Source: an uncultured Acidobacteriota bacterium (GTDB taxonomy: Bacteria > Acidobacteriota > Thermoanaerobaculia > UBA5066 > DATFVB01). Taken from it: DNA of 64,000 nt. The stretch covers positions 32,001 to 96,000 of the forward strand of contig CAWEYG010000004.1 in assembly GCA_963813155.1 (NCBI GenBank), written 5' to 3'. The translations under genes were made by a program, and so were the position numbers. Shown here piece by piece: positions 34,360 through 48,236 of this stretch (positions within the stretch are counted from its first letter, which is position 1; each line of letters begins with the position of its first letter). The notes below the pieces were generated by a model. That model ran no database searches. It was not told the origin of the DNA and saw nothing but the letters and a program-made list of their open reading frames with translations.

Positions 34360-37300
34360 ATGAGTTTGACGACCGGCGCTCGCCTGGGTCCCTACGAAAT
34401 CGTCGCTCCTCTCGGCGCCGGAGGCATGGGAGAAGTGTACCGGGCGAGGGACGTGCGCCTCGGCCGCGAAGTGGCGGTCAAGGTATTGCCCGAAGAGTTC
34501 GGGCGGGATCCCGAGCGCCGGCAGCGATTCGAGCGGGAAGCTCGCGCCGCTTCCGCCCTGTCCAGCCCTCATATCGTGACGGTCTTCGACGTCGGCCAGG
34601 AGGCCGAGGTCTGTTTCCTCGTGACCGAGCTCGTCGAGGGCGGTGACCTGCGCTCCCTCATCGGCAGTTCCGGTCTCACGGTCGAAAGAGATCGTCGCTC
34701 TCGCGCACCAGATCGCCGTCGGCCTTTCCGAAGCGCACGAGAAGGGAATCGTCCATCGCGACCTGAAACCGGAGAACGTTCTCGTCTCGAAATCGGGGGC
34801 GGCGAAGATCGCCGATTTCGGTCTTGCGAAAGTGTCGGCGAACGACGGAGACGACCTGTCTCAAATGTTGACGACCGACCGGGAGATGACCAGCCAGGGG
34901 GTCATCCTGGGGACGCTGCCCTACATGTCCCCCGAACAGGCGCGCGGAGAGAGAGTCGACTTCCGGTCGGACCAGTTCGCGCTCGGCGCGATCATCTACG
35001 AGCTCTTGACGGGGTCTCGCCGTTCAAGCGCCCGACGGCGGTGCTGACTCTCTCCGCGGTGATGGACCACGATCCACCGGCGCTGGGGGAGCATCGCAGC
35101 GGGCTGCCGGCTCGGTTCGAGAGAATCGTCCGTCGCTGCCTGGCAAAGGACAGGGAAGCGCGGTACCACTCGACGAAGGACCTCGCGCGGGACCTTCTCG
35201 ACGCGTCCCGGCCCACGGTCGCGCCGTCGAAATCCGCGGCCTTGCCGCCCAGCCCGACTTTCGGGCGGACCCGCGAGCTCGAGGGGCTTCGGGCCCTTCT
35301 CGAACGAAGGGACGTTCGCCTGCTGACGCTGACGGGCCCGGCCGGGATCGGAAAGACACGCCTCGCTCGCCAGGTCGCCTACGAGCTCGCGTCCGATTTC
35401 CCGGGCGGTGTGGAGTTCGTGTCTCTCGCGACTCTCAGCAATCCTTCGCTGCTGATTTCGGCCATCGCGAAATCGCTCGGGGTCGGCGAGCAGCCGGGCC
35501 GGCCGCTCGACGAGTCCCTTCGGGAGCATCTGGCCGGCCGGGCCGGGGGCGCGACGCTCCTCGTTCTGGACAACTTCGAGCATCTCGTCTCGGAGGCCGG
35601 AGCGCTTCCGCCCATTCTCGACGCGGCGCCCGGGGTCAAGATTCTCGCGACGAGCCGCTCGGTGCTTCGCCTCTACGGCGAGCAGGAATTCCCGGTTCCG
35701 CCGCTCGAAACTCCGCGAGCGGGTGGCCGCGCCACGCCGGAGGCTCTCGAGACCATCGCTTCGGTCGAGCTCTTTCTCCAGAGGGCGCGCGCCGTGGCGC
35801 CGGATTTCTCGCTGACCGCCGAGAATGCGTCCGAAATCGCCGAGATCTGCCGGCGCCTGGAAGGAGTGCCCCTCGCGTTGGAGCTCGCCGCCGCGCGGGT
35901 CAAATTGTTCGCTCCCCGGACCCTGCTGGGACGCCTGGAGAAACGGCTCGATCTTCTGACGGGCGGTCCGCGGGACTCGCCCGGCCGCCTTCAGACGCTG
36001 CGGGCGGCGATCGATTGGAGCCACGATCTGCTCGACGATTCGGAGAGGACGCTCTTTCGCCGGATCGCGGTCTTCCGGGGCGGTTTCACGCTGGAGGGCG
36101 TCGAGGCGGTGTGCAACGCGCGCGAGGACCTGAGCCTCGACGTTCTGGAAGGAGTTGCTTCGCTCCGGGACAAGAGTCTCCTTCTCCGAATCGAGGGTGA
36201 GGAGGAGGAGCCGCGTTTCGCCCAGCTGGAGACGATTCGCGAGTACGGGTCGGAGCAGTTGACGAAGAGCGCGGAGCAGGAGTCGGTCTGCCGCTGTCAT
36301 GCGGCGTATTTCCTGGTTCTCGCCGAGGAGGCCGACGCGAAGCTGACGGGCCCCGAGGGCCCGGCGTGGTACACGCGCCTGAAGCAGGAGGAGGCCAACC
36401 TGCGGGCAGCCGTGGATTGGTTGACGCTCGGGAACGAGCCGGTCTGGGGCCTGCGTCTCGGCGCGGCCCTGCTTCGGTACTGGGAGAGGCAGGAGTATTT
36501 CTCCGAGGGACGCGCGCAGCTCGAGGGCCTGCTCGCCGTGGCGGGCGCGCAGGTCCGGACGCGGGAGCGCGCGAGAGCCCTGCTCGCGGCGGGCATCCTG
36601 TCCTTCGCCCAGGGCAACCTTGCCGCGGGAACCGCCCGCGCTCAGGAGAGTCTCGAGATCTTTCGCGAAGTCGGCGATCGCCGAGGATGGGTCGCGGCCT
36701 TGAACGATCTGGCGGTCGGCGCGTTTTCCCGGGGCGAGTACGCGACGGCGGCTCCTCTGTTCGAGGAAGCGATCCCGATTCTGGAAGAGATCGGCGACCG
36801 CCTCGCCGCGGAGCGCACGCGGATGAACCTTGCGGACACACTGCGGGCTTCGGGAGACGAGGAACGCGCCCGCGCGCTATTCGAGCGGTGTGTTCAGGCA
36901 TTCACCGATCTCGCGGACTTCGACGGCCTGGCGTGGACGATGAGTCATCTCGCCAGGATGGAGAGCGACCGCGGGGGCCGCGTCGAGGCAAGACAACTGC
37001 TGACCCACAGCCTTTCCCTTTTCGAGAAGACGGGGGATTTCGTCGGGGTCGCCAATTGCCGGAGCGACTTGAGCAGGATTGCGGGAGGGGAGGGCGATTT
37101 TCCGGCCGCCCGCGAGCACCTTCGCAGCGGTATTCTCGTGGCGAGACGCGAGGGACTGCGGAGAAGCCTTGCGCGCCTCGCCGACGACGCCTGCGCGATG
37201 GCCGTCGCCGAGGGGCGATCCGAGGCAGCGCGTCCGCCTGGCCGCATCGGTCGAATCGTTTCGGAGGAGCAGCGGCTTTCCCGCGCCCGCAGGTGGAACG

Positions 37301-37445
37301 GACCGATTTCGACGGGACTCTTTCGAGGGCGAGGGCGGCCCTGAGTGAATCGCGCGCGGAAAGCGCTTGGCGCGACGGCGCGTCGATGTCGATCGACGAC
37401 GCGCTCGAGGAAACCCTGGCTATTCCGCCGTCGTCGGATCGATGA
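34360..37445 (+). CDS. Ser/Thr kinase - STAND/NB-ARC-like ATPase - TPR protein; frameshifts
   Basis: Kinase N-terminus; [54 protein letters not shown]; TPR-like C-terminus. Confidence 0.88.
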
Positions 37446-37694
37446 GGTTGCGAACGAGCGAGATTCGGCTTGCCGGAAAGCCGGATCTCGCGCGGCGTGC
37501 TGCTTGATGAGGTCTTCGTCGGGCGCGAGATAGACGCAGTAGAGCCTGTCGTCGGTCACGAAACTCTGCAGCCACTGGATGTTGGGTCCCAGCTCTTTCA
37601 GGGTCGCGAGCGATTTCTGGGCCGCGGCCTGCAACTCCGAGGGGGACATCTTTCCGGCTCCGGGGATTTCCCGTTCGATGACGAATTTCGGCAT
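37420..37694 (-). CDS. DUF4242 family protein; 3' frameshift
   Basis: MPKFVIEREIPGAG...IQWLQSFVTDDRLYCVYLAPDEDLIKQHA..SGFPASRIS. Confidence 0.85.
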
Positions 37695-37743
37695 CCTGAC
37701 CTCCGGCTTTCCGCCCAATTGTAGCAGGCTGGGCGGAACCTCC

Positions 37744-37772
37744 TTGACAGGGGACGGGGGCTCGACTAGAGT
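37744..37772 (+). promoter_or_regulatory. sigma70 promoter of the aro-trp operon
   Basis: TTGACA (37744-37749) - 17 nt - TAGAGT (37767-37772). Confidence 0.85.
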
Positions 37773-37781
37773 TCCGGCTCG

Positions 37782-37835
37782 ATGAAGATCGGCTTTTCGC
37801 CCAGCTGGTATTGGTATAACGAGGCAACTCGGTAG
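37782..37835 (+). CDS. Attenuator leader peptide MKIGFSPSWYWYNEATR
   Basis: ATG...TGG TAT TGG TAT...TAG, lying between the promoter and the terminator upstream of the aromatic operon. Confidence 0.85.
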   Translation: MKIGFSPSWYWYNEATR

Positions 37836-37895
37836 GGCGAAGCTCGCCCTGCCGGAGAAATTCGGGCGGGGCGATCGAGAGAGCGGATTGAATCG

Positions 37896-37928
37896 AAACC
37901 CCCGGCCGAACCGGGGGTTTTGAATTTT
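37896..37928 (+). terminator. Attenuator terminator
   Basis: AAACCCCCGG-CCGAA-CCGGGGGTTT then TGAATTTT; competing antiterminator arm TTCGGGCGGGG at 37861-37871. Confidence 0.85.
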
Positions 37929-39443
37929 GGAACGGCCGCTTCCCCATCCCGCGTTCATCGCGTCGATCGCGCCGGCGGATTTCGACGACGCGAAACGGCT
38001 CGTGTCGCTCGTTCCCGAGGGGGCGAACGCGATCGAGTACCGTCTGGATCTCGCGGCGGGGCGCATCTCCTCGAGGGCGCTCCTGGAGCTCGACCCGCGG
38101 TGCGCGATCGTGACCTACCGCACCGAGCGGGAAGGGGGAAAGTTCGGCGGGACCCTCGACGAGTACCGGCGATCCGTTCAATCGGCCTACGAAGCCGGGG
38201 CCGCCGTCGACGTCGAGCTGGAGAGCGCGACACTGGAAGATCGCGCCTTTCTTCCGGACCGGCGGCGCGTCATCGGCTCGCGGCACGCCGCGGGCGAGGG
38301 CGGCTGGCCGGACGCGGAGGTGTCCCGCTACCTGTCGGCGGACGTCGGCGCGGTCAAGCTCGTGCGCACGAACGTGAGCTCGATTTCCGACGGGTCGGCC
38401 TGCCTCGCCGCCCTGAGACGCCATTCCGGATCGCGGCCGTTCTCCTGCTTCGCGACCGGAACGCGCGGCACGTTCACCCGGATCGTCGGCGCCCGGTTCG
38501 GGTCGGCGCTGACGTACGGGAGCGTCGGAGCGCCGACGGCGGACGGGCAGGTTTCCGTCGCCGACCTCCGGGACGTCTATGGCGTCGGCCGGCCGGATCC
38601 GCCGACGAGAATCTTCGGCATCTACGGCGCCGACGTGTCGCGGTCGCTCTCGCCCGTCATCCACAACGCCCTCTTCGCCCGGCGCGGCCTTCCTTCGCTC
38701 TACCTTCCCCTGTCCGCGTCGGACGGAGCTCCGGGCGGGGACGTCCTGCGGCGCGATCTCGAAGCTCTCGCGTCGGCGGATCTCCTTCCCGCCGGGTTGT
38801 CCGTCACGAACCCGTTCAAGTCGGCGTTCGAGTCGATCGTGGAGGCGATCGACGAGGACGACGCGGTCGCGCGCACGGGCGCCGCGAACACGCTCGTCCG
38901 GATCGACGTCCCGGAGGACGGGCCGCGATATCTCGCGCGGAACACCGATGCGGAAGCGGTCCTCGAGGTCCTCTCCGGCCTGCGGCTCGCGGGACGCACG
39001 GTCGTCGTCCTCGGCAACGGCGGAGCGGCGCGCGCCGCGGCCTACGCTGCCGGCCTGGCCGGGTGCGCGGTCTTCCTGGCCGGGCGCGACCTTCGGAAGG
39101 TCAAGCCGGTCGCCGACCGGTTCGGCGCGAACGCGATCGCCGTGGGCGATCTCTCGGGCCTGGAGGCGGACGTGCTCGTCAACGCGACTCCGCTCGGGAC
39201 GGATCGAGGACGACCCGATCCCTTTCCCGCGCTCGTTGCTCGGCCCGGAAGCCGGCCGTCATCGATTTCGTGTACCGGCTCTCGGGAGAGACACCGCTCG
39301 TCCGCGAGGCCCGGGAGCGCGGCTGCGACACGGCGGACGGCCGCGAGCTCCTCGCGCGCCAGGCCGTCGGGCAGGCGAAGCTCTTCGGCGCGGAGGGAGT
39401 TTCGTACGAGGAGATCGACGCGATCCTCCGGGAGCACCGGTGA
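37927..39443 (+). CDS. Bifunctional type I 3-dehydroquinate dehydratase / shikimate dehydrogenase (AroD-AroE); frameshift near 39200-39250
   Basis: IEYRLD, TYRTEREGG, VIGSRH, AVKL; SLSPVIHN, SVTNPFK, NTD, GNGGAARA, NATPLG. Confidence 0.88.
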
Positions 39444-40847
39444 CGCGCGTCGTCACGCGGACGCTGCTCGCGGACACGACGACGCCCGTCGCCGTCATGC
39501 GAAAGCTGCTCGCCTCGGGCGGGGAGTCCTTTCTGCTCGAGAGCGTCGAGGGAGGCCGAAACGTCGCCCGCTACTCGTTTCTCGGCACGGCGCCGAAGGC
39601 GCGCATCGTGTTCCGGGACCGGGAGATCTCCGTCGAGGGAGACGGGGCGGAGCAGCCGGCGTTCGACGGCCGCGATCCCCTCGGGGTCGTCAGCCGGCGC
39701 GTGGTGCGGCCGGGCTTTCGCCGGGAGGAAGGGCAGCCGCCGTTTTCGGGTGGCGCCGTCGGTTACCTCTCGTACGACGCGGTCCGGATGTTCGAGCGGA
39801 TTCCCTCCCGGCACCCGCGCGTCTCCCGCATGCCGGACGCCCTGTTCCTCGTGTTCGATTCGACGATCGCGTTCGACCACGCGAAGGGGATCATGGTCCT
39901 CCAGTCGCTGGCCGAGGACTCGGAGGCCGACGCGGCCGCGGAATCGCGGCTCGACGTTCTCGAGAGGATCGTCGGGGCGCCCGCTCCGCCGGAAGACGGG
40001 CCGGCCGCGGCTCCTCCGGACTTCACGGAACGAACCTCGCGGGAGGGGTTCCTCGCGTCCGTCGACCTCGCGAAGGAACGGATTTCCGCGGGCGACATCT
40101 ACCAGATCCAGATCTCCCGGAGGTGGTCCGGCCGGCTCGAGAGCGATCCGTTCGAGGTCTATCGCGCCCTCCGGAGGGTGAACCCTTCGCCTTACCAGTT
40201 CTTCCTGCGCACTCGCGAAGCCGATATTCTCGGAGCGTCGCCGGAGATGCTCGTCCGGATCCGGGCCGGACGGATCGAGACCCGTCCGATCGCCGGAACG
40301 TATCCCCGCGGAGCCACTCCGGCGGAAGACCGGGAGCTCGAGGAGCGGTTTCTCTCCGACCCGAAGGAGAAAGCGGAGCACATCATGCTCGTCGACCTCG
40401 CGCGAAACGATCTCGGCCGGGTGTGCGAGAGCGGCAGCGTCTCGGTGCCGGAGTTCTTCCAGGTCGAGAAATACTCGCACGTGCAGCACCTCGTCTCCTC
40501 CGTCGTCGGGCCGCCTCAAGCCGGGCGTCACGGCTCTCGAGGCTCTCGCCGCGTCGTTTCCCGCGGGAACTCTGACCGGCGCGCCGAAGATCCGCGCGAT
40601 GGAGCTGATCGACGAGCTCGAGACGAGCCGACGCGGGATCTACGGAGGCGCGATCGGATACCTGGACGCGTCGGGCGATCTCGACTCGGCGATCGCGATC
40701 CGCACGATGGCCGTCGAGGACGGGGAAGCCCGAATCCAGGCGGCCGCCGGGATCGTCGCCGACTCGGTGCCGGAGCGTGAGGCGCGGGAGACGGAGATCA
40801 AGTCCGGCGCGTTGTTCCGCGCGGCGCGGGAGGCGTGCGGCCGATGA
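39440..40847 (+). CDS. trpE: Anthranilate synthase component I; frameshift near 40510
   Basis: FLLESVEGG, GDIYQI, NPSPY, RPIAGT, EHIMLVDLARND, FPAGTLTGAPK, YGGAIGY. Confidence 0.93.
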
Positions 40848-41419
40848 TCCTGATGGTCGACAACTACGACTCGTTCACGTTCAACCTCGTGCAGGCGATC
40901 GCGGTGCTCGATCCCGACGTTCGAGTCGTCCGGAACGACGAGTTCGACGTCGCCGAGGAAATCTCCCGGAAGCCGGCGAGGATCGTGATTTCGCCGGGGC
41001 CGGGCAGGCCCGAGGACGCGGGCAGGACGATCGAGACGATCCGGGCCGCGGAGCGGGAGCGGATTCCGCTGCTCGGGGTCTGCCTCGGGCACCAGGCCAT
41101 CGCGGTCGCGCACGGCGCGACGGTTTCGCGCGCTCCGGTGCCCGTGCACGGAAAGACTTCGCGGATCTCGCACGCCGGGATCGGCATCTTCGCCGGTCTC
41201 TCGAACCCGTTCGAGGCCACGCGTTACCATTCCCTCGCGGTCGCGGAGCGGACGCTTCCGGAGGAGCTCGTGACGACCGCGCGTTCCGAGGACGGGCTCG
41301 TGATGGGAATTCGCCATGCGTCGCTGCCGGTCTTCGGCGTCCAGTTCCACCCCGAGTCGATTCTTTCGATCGAGGGACCGAAGCTGATCGCGAACTTCCT
41401 GCGCGGGAGCTTCGAGTGA
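40844..41419 (+). CDS. trpG: Anthranilate synthase component II (glutamine amidotransferase)
   Basis: DNYDSFT, ISPGPG, GVCLGHQ, QFHPES. Confidence 0.95.
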   Translation: MILMVDNYDSFTFNLVQAIAVLDPDVRVVRNDEFDVAEEISRKPARIVISPGPGRPEDAGRTIETIRAAERERIPLLGVCLGHQAIAVAHGATVSRAPVPVHGKTSRISHAGIGIFAGLSNPFEATRYHSLAVAERTLPEELVTTARSEDGLVMGIRHASLPVFGVQFHPESILSIEGPKLIANFLRGSFE

Positions 41420-42426
41420 GCCTCCCGGACGCGCTCCGTCTGCTCGCGGAACGCCGGCCGATGAGCGGGGAGACGGCAAAGGGGGCGTTCCTCGACCTGA
41501 TGGAGGGCCGGGCGACGGACGCGCAGAAGGGCGCGCTCCTGCTGGGGCTCGCGGCGCGGGGCGAAACGCCGGAGGAGGTCGCGGGAGCGGTTTCCGCGTT
41601 GCGGGAAAAGATGACGGCGGTGGTTTCGCGCCGGTCGCCGCTCGTGGACACGTGCGGAACCGGCGGCGACGGCGCGGCGACGTTCAACGTCTCCACGGCG
41701 GCGGCGCTCGTCTGCGCCGGGGCCGGAGCGGCCGTCGCGAAGCACGGCAACCGCGCGGTGTCGTCGCGCTGCGGATCGGCGGACGTTCTCGAGGCGCTCG
41801 GCGTTCCTCTGGAAACGACGGCCGAGGAGGTCGCGAGGGACCTCGAGTCCCGGGGATTCGCGTTCCTCTTCGCGCCCGCGTTCCATCCCGCGATGAAGGA
41901 AGCCGCCGCCGTCCGCCGACAGCTGGGCGTGCGCACGATATTCAACCTGATCGGTCCTCTCGCGAACCCGGCGCGACCGTCGCGGCAGCTGATCGGCGTC
42001 GGACGATTCGAGGTCGCGGACCTGCTGGCCCGGGCGATGGCGCTCCTCGAAAGCGAGCGGACGATCATCTTCCATTCCGAAAACGGCCTCGACGAGCTGA
42101 CCCCGGGAGTTCCCGCGATCGGTTTCGAGATCCGCGGGCCGCGCGTCGACCCCTGGAAATTCGATCCCGGCGTGCTGGCGCAGCGCGCCGTCGCCCGCGA
42201 GGAGCTGGCGGGAGGCGACGCCCGCGAGAACGCCGCCGCGCTCGTTCGCCTCCTCGGGGGCGAGCGGGGCCCCTTGCGGGAAACCGTTCTCCTGAACTCC
42301 GCCGCGGGACTCTGGGTCGCGGGGACGGCGGCGACGCTGCACGACGGGTATGACCTCGCGTGCGATTCGATCGACGGCGGCCGCGCGGGCGCGGTTCTCG
42401 AGGCGGCGCAGCGGAGCGCGGCATGA
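41416..42426 (+). CDS. trpD: Anthranilate phosphoribosyltransferase
   Basis: DTCGTGGD, KHGNRAVSS, GSADVL, GLDE. Confidence 0.95.
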   Translation: MSLPDALRLLAERRPMSGETAKGAFLDLMEGRATDAQKGALLLGLAARGETPEEVAGAVSALREKMTAVVSRRSPLVDTCGTGGDGAATFNVSTAAALVCAGAGAAVAKHGNRAVSSRCGSADVLEALGVPLETTAEEVARDLESRGFAFLFAPAFHPAMKEAAAVRRQLGVRTIFNLIGPLANPARPSRQLIGVGRFEVADLLARAMALLESERTIIFHSENGLDELTPGVPAIGFEIRGPRVDPWKFDPGVLAQRAVAREELAGGDARENAAALVRLLGGERGPLRETVLLNSAAGLWVAGTAATLHDGYDLACDSIDGGRAGAVLEAAQRSAA

Positions 42427-43199
42427 GCGCCGGGGTGCTCGACGCGATCGTCTCCGCGACGCGACGCCGCGTTCGGGAGGGCGGGTATTCTCCCGCGGCG
42501 AAGGCCGGACCCTCGCCGCGCGGGGATCTGTTCCTCGCGTCTCTGCGGGAGCCGGGGACCCGGATCATCGCCGAAATCAAGGCGAAGTCCCCGTCGGCCG
42601 GGGAGATCGTGCGGGACTGCGGCCGAAAAGTCGAAACCCTCGCGCTCGCGTACCGGCGAGGCCACGCGGCCGCGATCTCGGTCGTCACGGAACGGGAGTA
42701 TTTCGGCGGGGATCCGGACTGGATCGCGAGGGCGAAAAAGATCTCCGGCCTGCCCGTGTTGATGAAGGACTTTGTGGTCGAGGAGGCCCAGCTGGACTTC
42801 GCGGCTTCGCACGGAGCCGACGCCGTGCTCCTGATCGCCTCGATTCTCGACGAGTCGGAACTGAGACGGCTGCGGGAGGCGGCGGAAGCCCGGGGATTGG
42901 CGGCCCTCGTGGAGACGCATTCGGAAATCGAAATTGAGAGAGCGATCGCCGCCGGGGCGACGATCGTCGGGGTCAACGCGCGCAATCTTCAGTCCTTCGC
43001 CGTCGGGCTCGAAGACCTCGTTTCCCTCGCCCCGCGAATCCCTTCTCCGAGGGTTCGGGTTGCCGAGAGCGGAATCCGGACCCGCGGGGACGTCGAGACG
43101 CTCGCCGCCGCCGGATACGGCGCGTTTCTCGTCGGCGAGACGCTGCTGCGCTCGCACGAGCCCGAAGTCGTCCTCCGAGGCCTGCGGGGCGAGCCGTGA
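42423..43199 (+). CDS. trpC: Indole-3-glycerol phosphate synthase
   Basis: [33 protein letters not shown]. Confidence 0.95.
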
Positions 43200-43803
43200 C
43201 CGGCGTCAAGATCTGCGGGTTGACGCGGCCCGGGGACGTCGCGCTGGCGGCGGCCCTCGGCGCGAGCCACGTGGGCTTCAATTGTTCCCCGCGGAGCCCG
43301 AGGCGCGCCGATCTCCGGATCGCGGCCGAGCTCGCGCGGGAATCGGGAAACGCGAAGCGCGTCGGCGTGTTCGTCGACGAGACGGCGGAAGAGATTCGCC
43401 GGGCGGTCGACGCCCTCCGGCTGGACTTCCTTCAGATCCATCGCGCCCTTCGAGCTTCGGACCTGGATCACGGCCTGCCGGTCGTCGCCGTCGCCCGGGT
43501 CGACGGCGAAGCGGCGGAGGTGCCCGAGACGGCGCTTCTGCGCCGGTGCCGGGCGATTCTTTTCGATACCGCCGATCCCGGGAGGCCGGGCGGCACCGGG
43601 AATTCCTTCGACTGGAGGCTCCTCGAACGGATGACCTTCCCCGTGCCGATGTGGCTGGCAGGCGGCCTGCGCGCCGACAACGTGGGGGAGGCGATCCTTC
43701 GCGGGCGGCCCGAGGTCGTCGACGTCGCGTCCGGAGTCGAATCGTCTCCCGGCGTCAAAGACAAGGCGAAGCTCGAAGCTTTCTTTCTCGCGGCGAGGCG
43801 GGC

Positions 43804-43807
<4 letters not shown>
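43196..43807 (+). CDS. trpF: Phosphoribosylanthranilate isomerase
   Basis: [28 protein letters not shown]. Confidence 0.95.
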
Positions 43808-44978
<1,171 letters not shown>

Positions 44979-44982
<4 letters not shown>

Positions 44983-45788
44983 CGGCGTCGCGCCTCGCCG
45001 GGAAGTTCGAGGCCGCGCGGCTGGACGGCCGCGCCTGCTTCATTCCTTACCTGACGGCCGGCGACCCGGATCTCGCGACGACCGTCGCGCTCGCGCGGGA
45101 GCTCGATCGGTCCGGCGCGGACGTGCTCGAGCTCGGCGTTCCGTTCTCCGACCCGATCGCCGACGGACCGACTCTCCAGCGGGCCGCCGCCCGCGCGCTG
45201 GCCGGCGGAACGACGCTCGCGGGCGTGCTCGAATGCGCGGCCGAGATTCGCCGCTCCACCCGTCTCGCGCTCGTGCTCTTTTCGTACGCGAACCCGCTCT
45301 TCGCGCCGGGGTTCGCGCGCGCGATGGACAGGTCGGCCGCGGCCGGTTTCGACGGCGTCCTGCTGACCGACGTTCCGGCGGAAGAGGCGGACGATTTCCT
45401 GCCCGCGATCGCGGCCTCGGGCCTCGACCCGATCTTCCTCGTGTCGCCGACGTCACCCGAAGAGCGAATGCGAAGAGCCTCGCGCCTCTCGCGGGGTTTT
45501 CTGTACGTCATCTCGCGGACCGGGACGACGGGGGAGAAGAAGTCGCTCGCGAGGGATCTCGCGCCGACGGTCCGGCGCGCCCGCCGCTGCTCCCCGGAGC
45601 TGCCGGTCGCCGTCGGGTTCGGCATTTCGACGGCCGCCGATGCGGCGCGCGTGGCCGCCCTTGCGGACGGCGTCATCGTCGGCTCGGCGCTCGTCCGGCT
45701 CGTCGAGTCGAGCGGACGGGACGCCGTCCCGGCGGCGGGACGGTTCGTCCGCGAAATGAGCGCGGCCTGCCTTCGAGCGCGGCGATGA
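44979..45788 (+). CDS. trpA: Tryptophan synthase alpha chain
   Basis: [32 protein letters not shown]. Confidence 0.96.
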
Positions 45789-46078
45789 GCGTCAGCGAGT
45801 TGGAGCGCCTGAGGCAGGCGATCGACGAGCTCGATCGCGTGATCGTGAAGCTCCTGAACCAGCGCGCGAAATACGCGATCGAGATCGGCCACGCGAAGAA
45901 GACTGTCGCGCTGCCGGTGTATTCGCCCGAGCGGGAGCGCGAAGTTCTTCGCAACGTCGAGGACGAGAACCGCGGCCCGCTCTCCGCCGACGGAATCCGC
46001 CGGCTCTACGAACGCATCATCGACGAGTCGCGGCGAATCGAGCGCCAGGCGAAAGAAGAAGAACGGGAAGAGGAGTGA
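45785..46078 (+). CDS. Chorismate mutase (AroQ type)
   Basis: LRQAIDELDRVIVKLLNQRA, PERE. Confidence 0.92.
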   Translation: MSVSELERLRQAIDELDRVIVKLLNQRAKYAIEIGHAKKTVALPVYSPEREREVLRNVEDENRGPLSADGIRRLYERIIDESRRIERQAKEEEREEE

Positions 46079-46085
46079 GGAACCC

Positions 46086-47099
46086 ATGTTGATCGTGATG
46101 AAGCCGAACGCGGGCGAAGCCGAAGTCGACGCGGTGATCGCGCGGCTCGTCGAAAAGGGGTTCGACGTCCACCGGTCGACGGGAGCGGAGCGGACCGTGC
46201 TCGGCGCGGTCGGACACGTCCAGAACAGCGACCCGCGGTTCTTCGAGGACATGGCCGGCGTGTTCGAGGTCGTCCGGATCAGCGAGCCGTACAAGCTTGC
46301 CGGGCGCACGTTCCAGCCGCGCGACAGCGTCGTGTCGGTTCGCGGGGTGCCGGTCGGCGGCGACGAGGTCGTCGTGATGGCGGGGCCGTGCACGATCGAG
46401 ACGCGCGAGCAGGTGTACGAGAGCGCGAAGGCGATCGCCCGGGCGGGCGCGAAGATCCTGCGCGGGGGCGCGTACAAGCCGCGCACGTCCCCGTATTCCT
46501 ACCAGGGGATGGGCGTCGATGGCTGGAAGATCCAGAGGGAAGTCGCCGACGAGTTCGGCCTCGCGACCGTGTCGGAGGTCATGGACTCCTCGCAGATCGA
46601 GGACGCGCTGGAGTACGTGGATCTCCTGCAGGTCGGCGCGAGGAACATGCAGAACTTCACGTTCCTGAAAGAGCTCGGCAAGATCCGCAAGCCGGTTCTC
46701 CTGAAACGCGGTCTCTCCGCGACGATCGAAGAATGGCTGTTGTCCGCCGAATACATCATGGCGGGCGGCAACCGCGACGTCATCCTGTGCGAGCGGGGAA
46801 TCCGCACGTTCGAGCGCTACACGCGCAACACGCTGGACATCTCCGCGATCCCGGTCATCGAGAAGCTCTCGCACCTGCCCGTCGTCGCCGACCCGTCGCA
46901 CGGCACGGGGCACCGCGAGCAGGTCGCGCCGATGGCGCTCGCCGCGGCGGCCGCGGGCGCGGACGGCCTGATCATCGAGGTGCATCCCGATCCGGACAAC
47001 GCGCTGTGCGACGGCCCGCAGTCGCTGCTGCCGGAGCAGTTCACGAGGCTGATGGATCAGCTCAGAATCATCGCCCCGGCCGTGGGGAAGCGGATTTGA
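46086..47099 (+). CDS. aroF: DAHP synthase (type I-beta, N-terminal regulatory domain)
   Basis: [43 protein letters not shown]. Confidence 0.93.
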
Positions 47100-47104
47100 G
47101 CTAC

Positions 47105-47165
47105 TCCCTCTCCCGGCGGGAGAGGGGTGGGGACCGGGGGGATGTCATTCCCGCGAAAGCGGGAA
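47105..47165. repeat. Two REP-like palindromes: CCCTCTCCC-GGC-GGGAGAGGG, and GTCATTCCCGCGAAAGCGGGAA|TC (split by the IS)
   Basis: Read directly; the second palindrome is completed by GAATC at 48203-48207. Confidence 0.75.
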
Positions 47166-48155
47166 GGTGGATTCACATTTGAAGTGCAACAGATGAGAGA
47201 AGACCTCGGCCGGGGTTTGGAAGTCAAGGCATTTCCTAGGTGTGTGATTGTAGAGTTGGGCAAGGCGGAGGATTTGGCTCGTGGGAAGGACTGCCAGGTC
47301 GGTTTTTCGGGGGAGGAAGCGACGAAGCCGGCCGATGGCATTTTCGACTCCGCCCTTCTGCCAAGGAGACCGTGGATCGCAAAAGAATGTTTCGACTCCG
47401 AGGGTTTTTCCCAGGCGGTGATGGAAAGCGAACTCGGTTCCGTTGTCGAAGGTCACGGTGCGGCGCAGGGACGGGGGAAGAGGTCGCAGAAGATTTTCGA
47501 TGGTAGAGACAAGAGGTGCGGCGGCCTTGCTTTGTTGACGCAGGATAACCGTCAGTCGAGAAGTACGTTCGTGAAGGGCCAAGACGGCCTGCCCATAGGT
47601 GGCAAAGAGCATGAGATCGGCCTCCCAATGGCCAGGGTTGGTTCGGTCACTGGCTTCTGGGGGTCGCAGAGCAATGGGGACACGGTTTTGGATGTGCACG
47701 GTCGAGTTGCCGTGTTTTGGGGAGCGTCGGCCGCGCTTGCTCTTGCCGCGGGGGAGGTAGAGCCGCCAGGAGTAATCCTTGGTGCGAGCGATCTGAGCGG
47801 CGATGAAGCGATAAATGGTTTCATGACTGACAACCGGCCGGCCTTCTTCGCGCGCGAGCCTGCCGGCGACCTCCTGCGGCGACCATCCCTGACTGAGGCG
47901 GTCCAAGACCAGAGCCTGGAGGTCGGGCCGACGCAACAGTTTGCTGCCGGTCCAGCGCCGTGCCTTGGCCTGTTGACCGGCGTAAACGGGCTGATACCCG
48001 CCCGACGTCGTGCTGTTGCGCTTCAGCTCCCGAGCAACGCTCGATGGCGCGCGATCCAGACCTGCCGCGATTTGCCGGATCGATTGCCCGGCGCAGCGAC
48101 GCCGGGCAATCTCACACCGTTCCTGGATCCCAAGCTGCCCGTATTGGCGCCCCAT
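47145..48155 (-). CDS. IS30-family DDE transposase
   Basis: HTH (SIRQIA..LDRAPSSVARELKRN), WSPQEV, SHETIYR, GHWEAD, TFDNGTEF, PWQKGGVEN. Confidence 0.95.
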   Translation of the reverse strand: MGRQYGQLGIQERCEIARRRCAGQSIRQIAAGLDRAPSSVARELKRNSTTSGGYQPVYAGQQAKARRWTGSKLLRRPDLQALVLDRLSQGWSPQEVAGRLAREEGRPVVSHETIYRFIAAQIARTKDYSWRLYLPRGKSKRGRRSPKHGNSTVHIQNRVPIALRPPEASDRTNPGHWEADLMLFATYGQAVLALHERTSRLTVILRQQSKAAAPLVSTIENLLRPLPPSLRRTVTFDNGTEFAFHHRLGKTLGVETFFCDPRSPWQKGGVENAIGRLRRFLPRKTDLAVLPTSQILRLAQLYNHTPRKCLDFQTPAEVFSHLLHFKCESTFPLSRE

Positions 48156-48202
48156 CGCAGCACCCCCATCAGAAGGTGTTGCACTTCGTTTGTGAAATCA
48201 AA
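47166..48202 (-). mobile_element. IS30-family insertion sequence (~1037 bp)
   Basis: Imperfect 26-bp IRs GGTGGATTCACATTTGAAGTGCAACA / TGTTGCACTTCGTTTGTGAAATCAAA; GAA duplicated at 47163-65 and 48203-05; lower GC than flanks. Confidence 0.9.
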
Positions 48203-48236
48203 GAATCGCTCTGGCGTGCCCGTGTAAAATCTCCCG

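What the first reader, a model, noticed from the sequence alone, without database searches (positions are those of the whole stretch)
37744..37929. Mixed Trp/Tyr(/Phe) leader-peptide attenuator (WYWY) ahead of an aro-trp supra-operon
Seen: TTGACA-17-TAGAGT promoter; 9 nt later an SD-less ORF MKIGFSPSWYWYNEATR* (37782-37835) using T-ending TTT/TAT codons in a GC-rich genome; terminator 37896-37928. A relay of exclusive pairings is present. GGGCGA (37835-40) can pair with TCGCCC in the leader (37797-802) or at 37844-49. 37844-53 can instead pair with 37865-74, which sequesters the antiterminator arm 37861-71; that arm pairs 10/11 with the terminator 5' arm and loop (37900-10). Established: trp leaders use tandem Trp codons for ribosome-stalling attenuation. 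Inference: alternating W/Y codons would let one attenuator sense both Trp and Tyr, fitting an operon that also has DAHP synthase, AroDE and chorismate mutase. The terminator 3' arm (GGGGG) may also hide the SD of the TTG start at 37927. I am not aware of this architecture being described for this lineage, but cannot verify that.
Basis: partly seen in the sequence, partly recalled or inferred. Interest (0 to 1): 0.82.

Follow-up and report, generated by a model that had tools for sequence, protein, structure and literature searches.

The report
Trp/Tyr leader-peptide attenuator of trp operon
A tiny 17-codon gene with alternating tryptophan and tyrosine codons, followed by a switchable transcription stop signal, most likely turns a tryptophan-synthesis operon of an uncultured soil acidobacterium up when these amino acids run short; it is a new variant of a textbook mechanism.

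Summary
The promoter, the SD-less mini-ORF MKIGFSPSWYWYNEATR*, the competing helices and the terminator are all at the stated coordinates. Such an ORF arose in 2 of 200,000 shuffles.

It is a ribosome-mediated transcription attenuator of aroDE-trpEGDCFBA-CM-DAHPS in an uncultured Thermoanaerobaculia (Acidobacteriota) genome. A homologous promoter, leaderless mini-ORF and terminator precede aroDE in all 84 relatives that had upstream DNA.

Leader codons track operon content:
- Trp only: aroDE-trp, 42 of 42.
- Trp interleaved with His: a complete his operon sits inside, 33 of 33.
- Trp interleaved with Tyr: only in the window's family, the only one with CM-DAHPS appended, 4 of 4 known.

These associations rest on about 3 his events and 1 Tyr event on the tree.

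Eight of 8 metagenome contigs found by the RNA scaffold alone also carry alternating Tyr/Trp codons.

The key hairpin is a 10-bp helix that includes the last Arg codon and the UAG stop. The leader-internal TCGCCC pairing, the T-ending codons and any Phe role are not conserved.

One puzzle remains: this family shows no detectable tyrA, pheA or hisD, so why Tyr is read is unexplained.

There is no experimental evidence. The scan earlier noted the His/Trp form and other mixed aromatic leaders on other DNA. I rate it a new variant of a known kind.

The parts
37744..37772 (+). Sigma-70-type promoter: TTGACA, 17 nt, TAGAGT
   Evidence: A -35/-10 pair ending 6-10 nt (mode 9) before the leader start codon was found by regex in 63 of 84 related leaders.
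37782..37835 (+). Leader ORF MKIGFSPSWYWYNEATR*. There is no SD and the ATG lies 9 nt after the -10 box, so it is probably translated from a leaderless or near-leaderless transcript.
37806..37817 (+). Regulatory codons TGG TAT TGG TAT (Trp-Tyr-Trp-Tyr)
   Evidence: The alternation is conserved in 6 of 6 family genomes and 8 of 8 metagenome contigs.
37830..37839 (+). Segment B, CGGUAGGGCG: the last Arg codon, the UAG stop and 4 further nt. It is the 5' arm of the protector hairpin B:C.
   Evidence: B:C -21.0 kcal/mol.
37844..37856 (+). Segment C, UCGCCCUGCCGGA. It pairs either with B (37845-54) or with D (37844-53 plus 37855-56).
   Evidence: C:D -23.9 kcal/mol.
37861..37875 (+). Segment D, UUCGGGCGGGGCGAU. 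It pairs either with C (the anti-antiterminator) or with E (the antiterminator; 10 of 11 positions, 37861-71 with 37900-10).
   Evidence: D:E -16.8, or -22.6 with the inner hairpin.
37896..37929 (+). Intrinsic terminator: E arm 37896-37905, loop 37906-10, F arm 37911-20, then a U-rich tract. The GGGGG of the F arm lies 9 nt before the aroD TTG start at 37927, which sits inside the U-tract.
37927..39443 (+). aroD-aroE fusion (type I dehydroquinase plus shikimate dehydrogenase). The reading frame changes at about 39246-39249.
39440..45788 (+). trpE (to 40780), trpG (40835-41419), trpD (to 42426), trpC (to 43199), trpF (43196-43807), trpB (to 44982), trpA (to 45788). Several starts are approximate.
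   Evidence: Pfam; synteny.
45785..46078 (+). Chorismate mutase (AroQ / CM_2). Its ATG overlaps the trpA stop (ATGA).
46086..47099 (+). DAHP synthase, type I-beta, with an N-terminal ferredoxin-like domain. It is the last gene of the operon and a GC-rich hairpin follows it.

Best explanation
This is a ribosome-mediated (leader-peptide) transcription attenuator of the his-type relay design. Transcription starts at or within about 3 nt of the leader AUG.

The RNA behind the leader can fold in two near-isoenergetic ways:
- B:C plus D:E, which gives read-through.
- C:D plus E:F, in which E:F is the terminator and also buries the GGGGG Shine-Dalgarno of the aroD UUG start.

Segment B contains the last sense codon and the UAG stop.

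When charged tRNA is plentiful, the ribosome runs to the stop and unwinds or covers B. C then pairs with D as D emerges, E stays free, and the terminator forms.

When the ribosome stalls at the Trp/Tyr codons 37806-37817, its front edge stops short of B. B:C persists, D pairs with E, the polymerase reads into aroDE-trpEGDCFBA-CM-DAHPS, and the SD is exposed.

Interleaving the codons of two amino acids puts both kinds of stall site into the same narrow positional window, so the element acts as an OR gate.

Shown: the sequence anatomy, its conservation, and the link between leader codons and operon content. Inferred: stalling, the switch itself, and the sensing of Tyr. My odds are about 0.9 that it is a Trp-responsive attenuator and about 0.6 that the Tyr codons are also functional stall sites.
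For: 1. Anatomy and chance.

2. Conservation.
- 30 of 30 upstream regions of aroDE in the order carry a Trp-containing mini-ORF plus terminator.
- 8 of 9 further loci do too.
- 84 of 90 rows in the wider set have a leader. The other 6 had no upstream DNA.

3. Both folds are kept in 22 sequences.
- 90.4% of cells pair for C:D plus E:F, and 88.3% for B:C plus D:E.
- This falls to at most 68.7% and 61.4% when partners are slid by one column.
- Family f2 has the same four-helix relay built from different sequence.

4. Energies are balanced: B:C+D:E is -37.8 kcal/mol (D:E improves from -16.8 to -22.6 if its inner hairpin forms) and C:D+E:F is -42.4.

5. Folds of the transcript cut before the terminator's 3' arm, with ribosome masks.
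- Stalled at the first or last regulatory codon: antiterminated in 22 of 22 f1+f3 leaders at every footprint.
- At the stop with footprint +7 to +11: terminator-permissive in 17 of 22, including the window.

6. Leader codons track operon content.
- W-only leaders go with aroDE-trp: 42 of 42 known.
- W+His leaders go with his genes inside the operon: 33 of 33 known.
- W+Tyr leaders go with CM after trpA: 4 of 4 known.
- W-only leaders have no CM: 32 of 32 known.
- G016 lacks the his genes and the His codons, while its congeners G034 and G028 have both.

7. Tyr codons behave as selected codons.
- The registers vary (WYWY, YWYW, WYWYW, YWY) and there are synonymous TAT/TAC changes.
- The N-terminal part of the peptide has diverged.
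- 8 of 8 metagenome contigs found with a pattern that excludes the leader codons carry the alternation.

8. trpA-CM overlap (ATGA) and an 7-nt gap between CM and DAHPS place both genes in the operon.
Against: - There is no expression or termination data. The only RNA-library contig covers 37600-37705, not the leader.
- Covariation is weak because the core helices are invariant. 54 and 41 of 500 shuffles reach the observed covariation score.
- Full-length equilibrium folds keep the terminator core under every mask. All terminator pairs hold in the 6 f1 leaders, and at least about half in all but one fold of the f3 leaders (L009, stalled at the first codon).
- The at-stop state stays antiterminated in 11 of 22 leaders at footprint +13 and 18 of 22 at +15. 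In f2 it does so in 6 of 8 at all footprints. The switch therefore has to be kinetic.
- Without any ribosome the truncated transcripts fold antiterminated in 24 of 30, unlike E. coli trp.
- The codon/operon association rests on few independent events. There are 3 changes for his (2-3 independent pairs, sign test p = 0.5) and 1 change for Tyr.
- In f3 the residue between Trp codons can be Arg or Cys (WRW, WCW), so an interleaved residue need not be a sensor.
- The family with Tyr codons has no detectable prephenate dehydrogenase, prephenate dehydratase or Phe hydroxylase. Inducing this operon would not obviously relieve Tyr starvation.
Confidence: 0.6

Rival explanations
1. A Trp-only attenuator. 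The element works as described, but only the Trp codons are sensed. The Tyr codons are kept for another reason, such as spacing the Trp codons, tuning basal ribosome speed, nascent-peptide properties or local RNA context.
For: - f3 leaders show W-x-W with x = Arg or Cys.
- No tyrA, pheA or Phe hydroxylase is detectable in the 7 genomes of the family.
- CM plus DAHPS together match the B. subtilis-type bifunctional DAHPS/CM model (NF009239). CM may therefore be a regulatory partner of DAHPS rather than a Tyr/Phe branch enzyme.
- There is only one evolutionary event for Tyr codons.
Against: - Strict Tyr identity with synonymous TAT/TAC changes in 14 of 14 f1-type sequences, while neighbouring residues drift.
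- L196 keeps two Tyr codons but only one Trp.
- The exactly parallel W/His interleaving goes with his genes in 33 of 33 rows and is lost with them in G016.
Confidence: 0.27
2. Translational control only. The hairpin 37896-37920 mainly hides the GGGGG ribosome-binding site and UUG start of aroD, and the leader ORF controls its opening without much transcription termination.
For: - The first in-frame start after the G-run is a TTG 7-9 nt downstream (mode 8) in most rows. The script called TTG in 66 of 84. The 5 f1 rows it flagged 'nostart' show TTG 9 nt after the G-run in the printed sequence.
- The hairpin was not listed by the simple terminator scanner.
Against: - The hairpin is followed by a U-rich tract (UUUUGAAUUUUG here, UUUUUGUUUU in relatives) in all aligned sequences. 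This is the signature of an intrinsic terminator.
- The two modes are not exclusive.
Confidence: 0.06
3. A nascent-peptide (arrest-peptide) sensor of free amino acid, as in tnaC, rather than a sensor of tRNA charging.
For: The C-terminal part of the peptide (R-E-x-x-R-stop in f3, x-x-T/S-R-stop in f1) and the stop codon are conserved.
Against: - That conservation is explained at RNA level. CGG-UAG is the base of helix B:C, and f2 uses other residues and other stop codons with another helix.
- The sensed residues change with operon content, as expected for codon-level sensing.
Confidence: 0.04
4. A chance ORF and an ordinary terminator or repeat with no regulatory role.
For: None beyond the lack of experimental data.
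Against: - 2 of 200,000 shuffles give such an ORF.
- The element is single-copy in the genome.
- It is conserved in 84 of 84 loci with upstream DNA, across families whose AroDE is 34-60% identical.
Confidence: 0.02

Closest known systems
E. coli / Salmonella trp operon attenuator (trpL; Rfam Trp_leader RF00513)
   Same: A short leader ORF with Trp codons, an antiterminator and terminator that exclude each other, and control of trpE and the genes downstream by ribosome position (general knowledge; abstract of PMC1183508 seen).
   Different: - No sequence or structure match to the Rfam model.
- Four competing helices instead of three.
- Leaderless, SD-less start.
- Tyr codons interleaved with Trp.
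- The stop codon lies inside the first helix.
- Without a ribosome the predicted default is read-through.
- The operon also holds aroDE, CM and DAHPS.
Salmonella / E. coli his operon attenuator (hisL; Rfam His_leader RF00514)
   Same: A relay of alternative helices (A:B, C:D, E:F against B:C, D:E) in which a stalled ribosome flips the whole chain. This is recalled from general knowledge and was not tested here.
   Different: - No Rfam match.
- The regulatory codons here are Trp/Tyr, or Trp/His in relatives, not a run of seven His.
- An A:B helix is not conserved.
Corynebacterium glutamicum aroR leader peptide upstream of aroF (DAHPS)
   Same: A leader peptide with mixed aromatic codons (Phe-Tyr-Phe) controlling a DAHP synthase operon by attenuation. 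I saw this in passages of the review PMC11802643. The review states that only Phe limitation, not Tyr, affected transcription.
   Different: A different phylum, a different amino-acid pair (Phe/Tyr, not Trp/Tyr), and a different operon. Here the trp genes come first and DAHPS comes last.
Multi-amino-acid leaders of thr (Thr/Ile) and ilv (Leu/Val/Ile) operons of enterobacteria
   Same: One leader reads the codons of several amino acids, giving multivalent attenuation (recalled general knowledge).
   Different: Those amino acids are all products of, or linked to, the controlled pathway. Here no Tyr-forming enzyme is detectable in the family.
aro-his-trp supra-operon with His/Trp leader in other Thermoanaerobaculia
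   Same: It belongs to the same family of elements. My searches found it independently in families f2 and part of f3, on a homologous promoter, leader and terminator layout in front of aroDE.
   Different: The window's family has lost the his genes and the His codons. It carries Tyr codons and an appended CM-DAHPS instead.

Membership tests
Ribosome-mediated (leader-peptide) transcription attenuators | A short ORF with clustered codons for the amino acid made by the downstream operon | tested here: met
   Two Trp codons lie before a complete trp operon. The cluster is conserved in 84 of 84 relatives with upstream DNA. For Tyr the cognate pathway is not detectable.
Ribosome-mediated (leader-peptide) transcription attenuators | An intrinsic terminator between the leader ORF and the first structural gene | tested here: met
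   A 10-bp GC-rich stem plus a U-rich tract at 37896-37929. 98.6% of cells pair across 22 sequences. It was not listed by the simple scanner.
Ribosome-mediated (leader-peptide) transcription attenuators | An antiterminator that excludes the terminator, and whose formation depends on ribosome position | tested here: met
   This was tested in silico only. D:E pairs 10 of 11 positions. The masked folds switch in 17 of 22 leaders at footprints +7 to +11 and less at larger footprints.
Ribosome-mediated (leader-peptide) transcription attenuators | Read-through rises when the cognate charged tRNA is limiting | not testable with these tools
   The organism is uncultured. No RNA reads cover the leader.
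Rfam Trp_leader (RF00513), His_leader (RF00514) and other leader or T-box models | A match to the family covariance model | tested here: not met
   A cmscan of 36500-39000 at E up to 10 returned no leader, T-box or riboswitch family. It returned only weak unrelated hits.
Leaderless leader ORFs (as reported for actinobacterial attenuators; recalled) | The start codon lies at or within a few nt of the transcription start, with no SD | tested here: inconclusive
   The -10 box ends 9 nt before the ATG here and 6-10 nt before it in 63 of 84 relatives by regex. The transcription start itself was not mapped.

The most novel reading that the evidence does not exclude
One attenuator scaffold has been re-coded in evolution as a programmable two-input OR gate. 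Interleaved codons (W, W/H, W/Y) are rewritten whenever genes enter or leave the operon. In the window's family the Tyr input reports a Tyr-linked function of the appended CM-DAHPS pair. That would imply a non-canonical prephenate-to-tyrosine route, or a deliberate use of Tyr-tRNA charging as a proxy signal, in bacteria that lack tyrA, pheA and hisD.
Probability: 0.2. Interest if true: 0.75.

Novelty: new variant of a known kind. Interest (0 to 1): 0.55.

Why it matters
- Leader-peptide attenuators are textbook in Proteobacteria and Actinobacteria. [quoted passage not shown]
- I found no paper holding Thermoanaerobaculia, tryptophan and attenuat* together.
- One homologous scaffold carries three codon programmes that follow operon content. 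This is a natural codon-swap experiment showing how attenuator specificity evolves.
- It gives testable predictions for mixed Trp/Tyr and Trp/His sensing.
- It flags a metabolic puzzle: chorismate mutase and Tyr codons in a family without tyrA or pheA.
- The mechanism itself is not new.

Tried and rejected
- Rfam scan of the region: no known leader, T-box or riboswitch.
- Full-length equilibrium folds with ribosome masks: the terminator core stays in place whatever the mask, so they are uninformative. I replaced them with truncated-transcript folds.
- Covariation statistics: not significant, because the cores are invariant.
- Tree-based independent pairs: 2-3 pairs, all concordant, p = 0.5, too few for a test.
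I rejected it as a conserved part.
- T-ending codons as a feature: 4 of the 6 family genomes use TAC.
- Phe as a third input: the single TTT is not conserved.
- Repeat or mobile-element origin: the element is single-copy.
- A separate Tyr/Phe leader before DAHPS in f3 and f2: none was seen in 9 upstream regions.
- The gene after DAHPS as a hidden Tyr enzyme: it is a YpdA-family disulfide reductase.
- Public runs: 20 runs hold small parts of the stretch. Four were laid. The one RNA-library contig covers only 37600-37705, the divergent upstream gene, so there is no evidence about the leader transcript.
- Other orders of the class: among the 10 loci looked at, 8 gave an aroD hit whose upstream region I could examine. 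Only L171 shows a Trp/His leader.
- Not tried: I built no covariance model and did no class-wide RNA search.
Full report
OBSERVATION

- Promoter: TTGACA 37744-49, 17 nt, TAGAGT 37767-72. It is the only + strand promoter-like site in 36500-39000 (shuffles mean 0.1).
- Nine nt later comes an ORF without a Shine-Dalgarno: ATG...TGG TAT TGG TAT AAC GAG GCA ACT CGG TAG (37782-37835, MKIGFSPSWYWYNEATR*).
- The terminator is a GC-rich hairpin at 37896-37920 followed by UUUUGAAUUUUG.

The simple terminator scanner did not list the hairpin, but RNAfold forms it in every fold. The region folds better than 200 of 200 shuffles (z = -4.1).

An ORF holding at least four consecutive TGG/TAY codons, at least two of them TGG, arose in 2 of 200,000 dinucleotide-preserving shuffles of the 231-nt intergenic region. 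The element is single-copy in its genome. No Rfam family matches it.

CONTEXT

Downstream lie, tightly packed (Pfam; NCBIfam):
- an aroD-aroE fusion,
- trpE, trpG, trpD, trpC, trpF, trpB, trpA,
- a 97-aa AroQ chorismate mutase, whose ATG overlaps the trpA stop (ATGA),
- a type I-beta DAHP synthase with a ferredoxin-like N-domain, starting 7 nt after the CM stop.

The next conserved gene is a YpdA-family disulfide reductase. In G004 a 289-nt gap separates it from DAHPS, so the operon ends at DAHPS.

Record titles of related contigs place the lineage in Acidobacteriota, class Thermoanaerobaculia. All are uncultured MAGs.

CONSERVATION

- With the AroDE N-terminus as probe, 39 of 41 genomes of the order had a match.
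- All 30 upstream regions fetched carry a promoter, a Trp-containing mini-ORF ending 88-106 nt before aroD, and a terminator. 29 of these 30 have an in-frame start; the exception, L022, comes from a genome whose aroDE is also split.
- Eight of 9 further f2 loci also have the mini-ORF. None was found in the 520 nt examined of L048.
- A scan of one genome per species returned 80 more loci. With 10 added rows this makes 90 rows. Of these, 84 have a leader (L080 by eye) and 6 had no upstream DNA. No two rows had identical AroD segments.
- The family of the window (f1) has only 7 species genomes. Six carry the element and the seventh is 51% complete.
- G002 and G008 are unpublished. G002 supplies one of the six f1 leaders (YWYW) and G008 one f3 leader (WW). 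No conclusion depends on them.

LEADER CODONS TRACK OPERON CONTENT

Synteny comes from tblastn with the window's proteins and with the his proteins of L044. Pfam confirmed hisZG, D, C, B, H, A, F, IE.

| Leader type | Operon | Count among known rows | Unknown |
|---|---|---|---|
| Trp only (WW, WWW, WRW, WCW, single W) | aroDE followed directly by trpE | 42 of 42 | 3 |
| Trp only | no CM within more than 1.5 kb after trpA | 32 of 32 | 13 |
| At least 2 His in the last 11 residues (HWHxHH, WHWHH, WHWHWHH, HHWHH) | complete his operon between aroDE and trpE | 33 of 33 | 1 |
| At least 2 Tyr (WYWY, YWYW, WYWYW) | trpE next | 5 of 5 | 0 |
| At least 2 Tyr | CM(-DAHPS) after trpA | 4 of 4 | 1 (G002 contig ends) |

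Within one genus, G034 and G028 have the his genes and HHWHH / HRWHH. G016 has neither: its leader reads GNGWRNEV.

On an AroD tree of 81 rows (quick LG+G4), his genes change state 3 times and His codons 3 times, at the same places. Independent pairs number 2 on starred branches and 3 on all branches, all concordant. The sign test gives p = 0.5, which is too few events for statistics. Tyr codons change once. The association is therefore perfect but rests on few events, and on only one event for Tyr.

FURTHER TEST OF THE TYR CODONS

I scanned metagenome contigs with a 33-nt pattern taken from segments C-D of the six f1 leaders, without any leader-ORF codon. It gave 8 contigs. All 8 carry alternating Tyr/Trp codons: YWYW, WYWYW and, in L196, GYWYNEATR with two Tyr and one Trp. 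That makes 7 distinct peptides, one of them equal to G003's.

Across the 14 f1-type sequences the N-terminal residues differ freely and the register shifts. Tyr is TAT in the window, G001 and L196, and TAC elsewhere. This pattern points to selection on Tyr codons as such.

STRUCTURE

The alignment of 22 f1+f3 leaders shows invariant blocks: CGGUAGGGCG (B), CGCCCUGCCG (C), GG.CGGGG (D), ACCCCCGGCC (E) and GGGGGUUUU (F).

| Helix | Positions | Energy (kcal/mol) |
|---|---|---|
| B:C | 37830-39 with 37845-54, 10 bp | -21.0 |
| C:D | 37844-53 with 37865-74, plus 2 bp | -23.9 |
| D:E | 37861-71 with 37900-10, 10 of 11 positions | -16.8, or -22.6 with an inner hairpin |
| E:F | terminator | -18.5 |
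| B:C + D:E | | -37.8 |
| C:D + E:F | | -42.4 |

- Both folds are kept across the 22 sequences. 90.4% and 88.3% of cells pair, against at most 68.7% and 61.4% when slid by one column.
- Covariation is weak. 54 and 41 of 500 shuffles reach the observed score.
- A few compensatory cases exist in B:C: GGGCA/UGCCC in L007, and a different, longer hairpin in L019.
- Family f2 builds the same four-helix relay from unrelated sequence. I count this as the strongest structural support.
It is not conserved in G002-G005.

MECHANISM (INFERRED)

B contains the last sense codon and the stop. A ribosome that finishes the leader must unwind and cover B. C then pairs with D, E stays free, and the terminator forms. 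A ribosome stalled at 37806-37817 ends short of B, so B:C and then D:E form and the polymerase reads through.

Folds of transcripts cut before the F arm, with the ribosome footprint masked, gave the following. Counts are the number of leaders that fold antiterminated.

| Ribosome position | f1+f3 (n = 22) | f2 (n = 8) |
|---|---|---|
| Stalled at first regulatory codon, any footprint | 22 | 8 |
| Stalled at last regulatory codon, any footprint | 22 | 6-8 |
| At stop, footprint +7 to +11 | 5 | 6 |
| At stop, footprint +13 | 11 | 6 |
| At stop, footprint +15 | 18 | 6 |

- The window is terminator-permissive at footprints +7 to +11 and antiterminated from +13.
- With no ribosome, 24 of all 30 transcripts fold antiterminated.
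- Full-length equilibrium folds keep the terminator core under every mask, fully in the f1 leaders.
- The thermodynamic support is therefore partial. The decision must be kinetic, as in classical attenuators.

The -10 box ends 6-10 nt (mode 9) before the leader start in 63 of 84 leaders found by regex. This suggests leaderless translation.

The first in-frame aroD start after the G-run is a TTG in most rows, usually 7-9 nt downstream (mode 8). The script called TTG in 66 of 84. The five f1 rows it flagged 'nostart' show TTG 9 nt after the G-run in the printed sequence. The terminator's 3' arm can therefore double as the ribosome-binding site, and the U-tract holds the start codon.

THE PUZZLE

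- hisD (PF00815) was found only inside the operon of G017 and G034. It was not found in G000, G016 or G010 (controls 14 of 14).
- In f1 I found no prephenate dehydrogenase: PF02153 in 0 of 4 genomes, PF20463 in 0 of 7, and the G016 TyrA protein in 0 of 7.
- In f1 I found no prephenate dehydratase: PF00800 in 0 of 4 and the G016 protein in 0 of 7.
- In f1 I found no Phe hydroxylase: PF00351 in 0 of 7, with a weak control that rings in only 1 of 14.
- G016 (f3) and G017 (f2) have both PDH and PDT.
- In f3 and f2 the FXD-type DAHPS stands alone without a leader. A second DAHPS sits next to a CM-PDT gene.
- The f1 CM scores as a P-protein-type CM domain (68.6 bits, cut-off 69.55). Together with the DAHPS it matches the bifunctional DAHPS/CM model NF009239.

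The family that reads Tyr codons therefore seems unable to make Tyr by known enzymes. There are three possibilities: a non-canonical route exists, Tyr-tRNA charging serves as a proxy signal for aromatic supply, or the Tyr codons serve another purpose. 'Not found' refers to the genomes searched. G000 is 90.8% complete, and G004 is one contig at 98%.

COMPARISON WITH WHAT IS KNOWN

The logic is that of the trp and, more closely, the his attenuator (general knowledge).

Mixed leaders are known:
- thr and ilv (recalled).
- C. glutamicum AroR, with Phe-Tyr-Phe before aroF, where only Phe limitation had an effect (review PMC11802643, passages seen).
- Seliverstov et al. 2005 found no conserved RNA elements before his, Phe or Tyr operons in Actinobacteria (PMC1262725, passage).
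- Naville and Gautheret 2010 noted that almost no predicted attenuator in Acidobacteria had a function (PMC2965389, passage).

Searches for Acidobacteria plus leader peptide, attenuator and trp operon, for Thermoanaerobaculia plus tryptophan plus attenuat (0 papers), and for leader peptide plus 'histidine and tryptophan' plus attenuation gave nothing on this element. Subscription papers and supplements were not searchable.

This scan itself had already noted the His/Trp aro-his-trp operon in other Thermoanaerobaculia (e1-1925861, e1-1202639) and mixed aromatic leaders in other phyla (e1-2304896, e1-4720364, e1-4060351, e1-4398468).

VERDICT

This is a real, conserved leader-peptide attenuator and a new variant of a known kind. 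Three things are new here:
- the Trp/Tyr interleaved form;
- the demonstration that one scaffold is re-coded (W, W/H, W/Y) as genes enter or leave the operon;
- the mismatch between the Tyr codons and the apparent lack of Tyr synthesis.

Confidence is about 0.9 for a Trp-responsive attenuator and about 0.6 for Tyr sensing. There is no experimental evidence: the only RNA-library contig near the site covers the upstream gene.

Noticed in passing
window 39246-39249: The aroE part of the aroD-aroE fusion changes reading frame here. The G004 protein aligns to frame 1 up to 39246 and to frame 3 from 39249. G001 has a similar break at residue 215. This is probably an assembly indel, but it could be a real frameshift.
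   Followed up: partly
G000, G016, G010 (whole genomes); L033, L044, L055 and others: In this order histidinol dehydrogenase was found only inside the aroDE-his-trp operon. Genomes without the his insert (the window's own, G016, G010) gave no hisD hit at all, so they are probably histidine auxotrophs.
   Followed up: partly
G000-G006 (family f1, whole genomes): No prephenate dehydrogenase, prephenate dehydratase or Phe hydroxylase was detected in the family, yet an apparently intact chorismate mutase is kept in the trp operon. The fate of prephenate is unknown.
   Followed up: partly
L171 (G044, another order of the class), about 75-170 nt upstream of aroD: A leader ORF ending ...GWWGFVHHHVE* sits in front of aroDE-hisZG. 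It carries Trp and His codons in blocks rather than interleaved, so the principle reaches beyond the window's order. Seven other loci of other orders with an examinable upstream region showed no such leader.
   Followed up: partly
window 47100-48236: About 1.1 kb lies between DAHPS and the YpdA-family gene and has no Pfam or NCBIfam hit. The ORF 47127-48227 starts in lower-GC sequence. In G004 the same two genes are only 289 nt apart, so this may be an insertion.
   Followed up: no
window 37918-37929 and the related loci: The aroD start is a TTG embedded in the terminator's U-tract. In most relatives the first in-frame start after the G-run is also a TTG, usually 7-9 nt downstream. The U-tract constraint may explain the rare start codon.
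   Followed up: yes
window 34360-37344 (+): A 994-aa protein with an N-terminal protein-kinase domain, a STAND/NACHT-type NTPase and TPR repeats lies upstream of the divergent SCO4226-like gene (37420-37697, minus strand).
   Followed up: no
window 38246-38290 (-): A weak match to Rfam M23 RNA (31.6 bits, gathering score 41.2, E = 0.0012) lies inside the aroD coding region. It is below threshold and probably due to GC-rich chance.
   Followed up: no
L016, L018-L021, L023-L030 and many loci: In f2 and part of f3 the attenuator follows directly behind the 3' end of a gene whose product ends ...LEDTPQGVRWKRK*. I take it to be cysS, but I named it by eye and did not test this. Several of these leaders have a TGATAT-type -10 box and no clear -35.
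   Followed up: no
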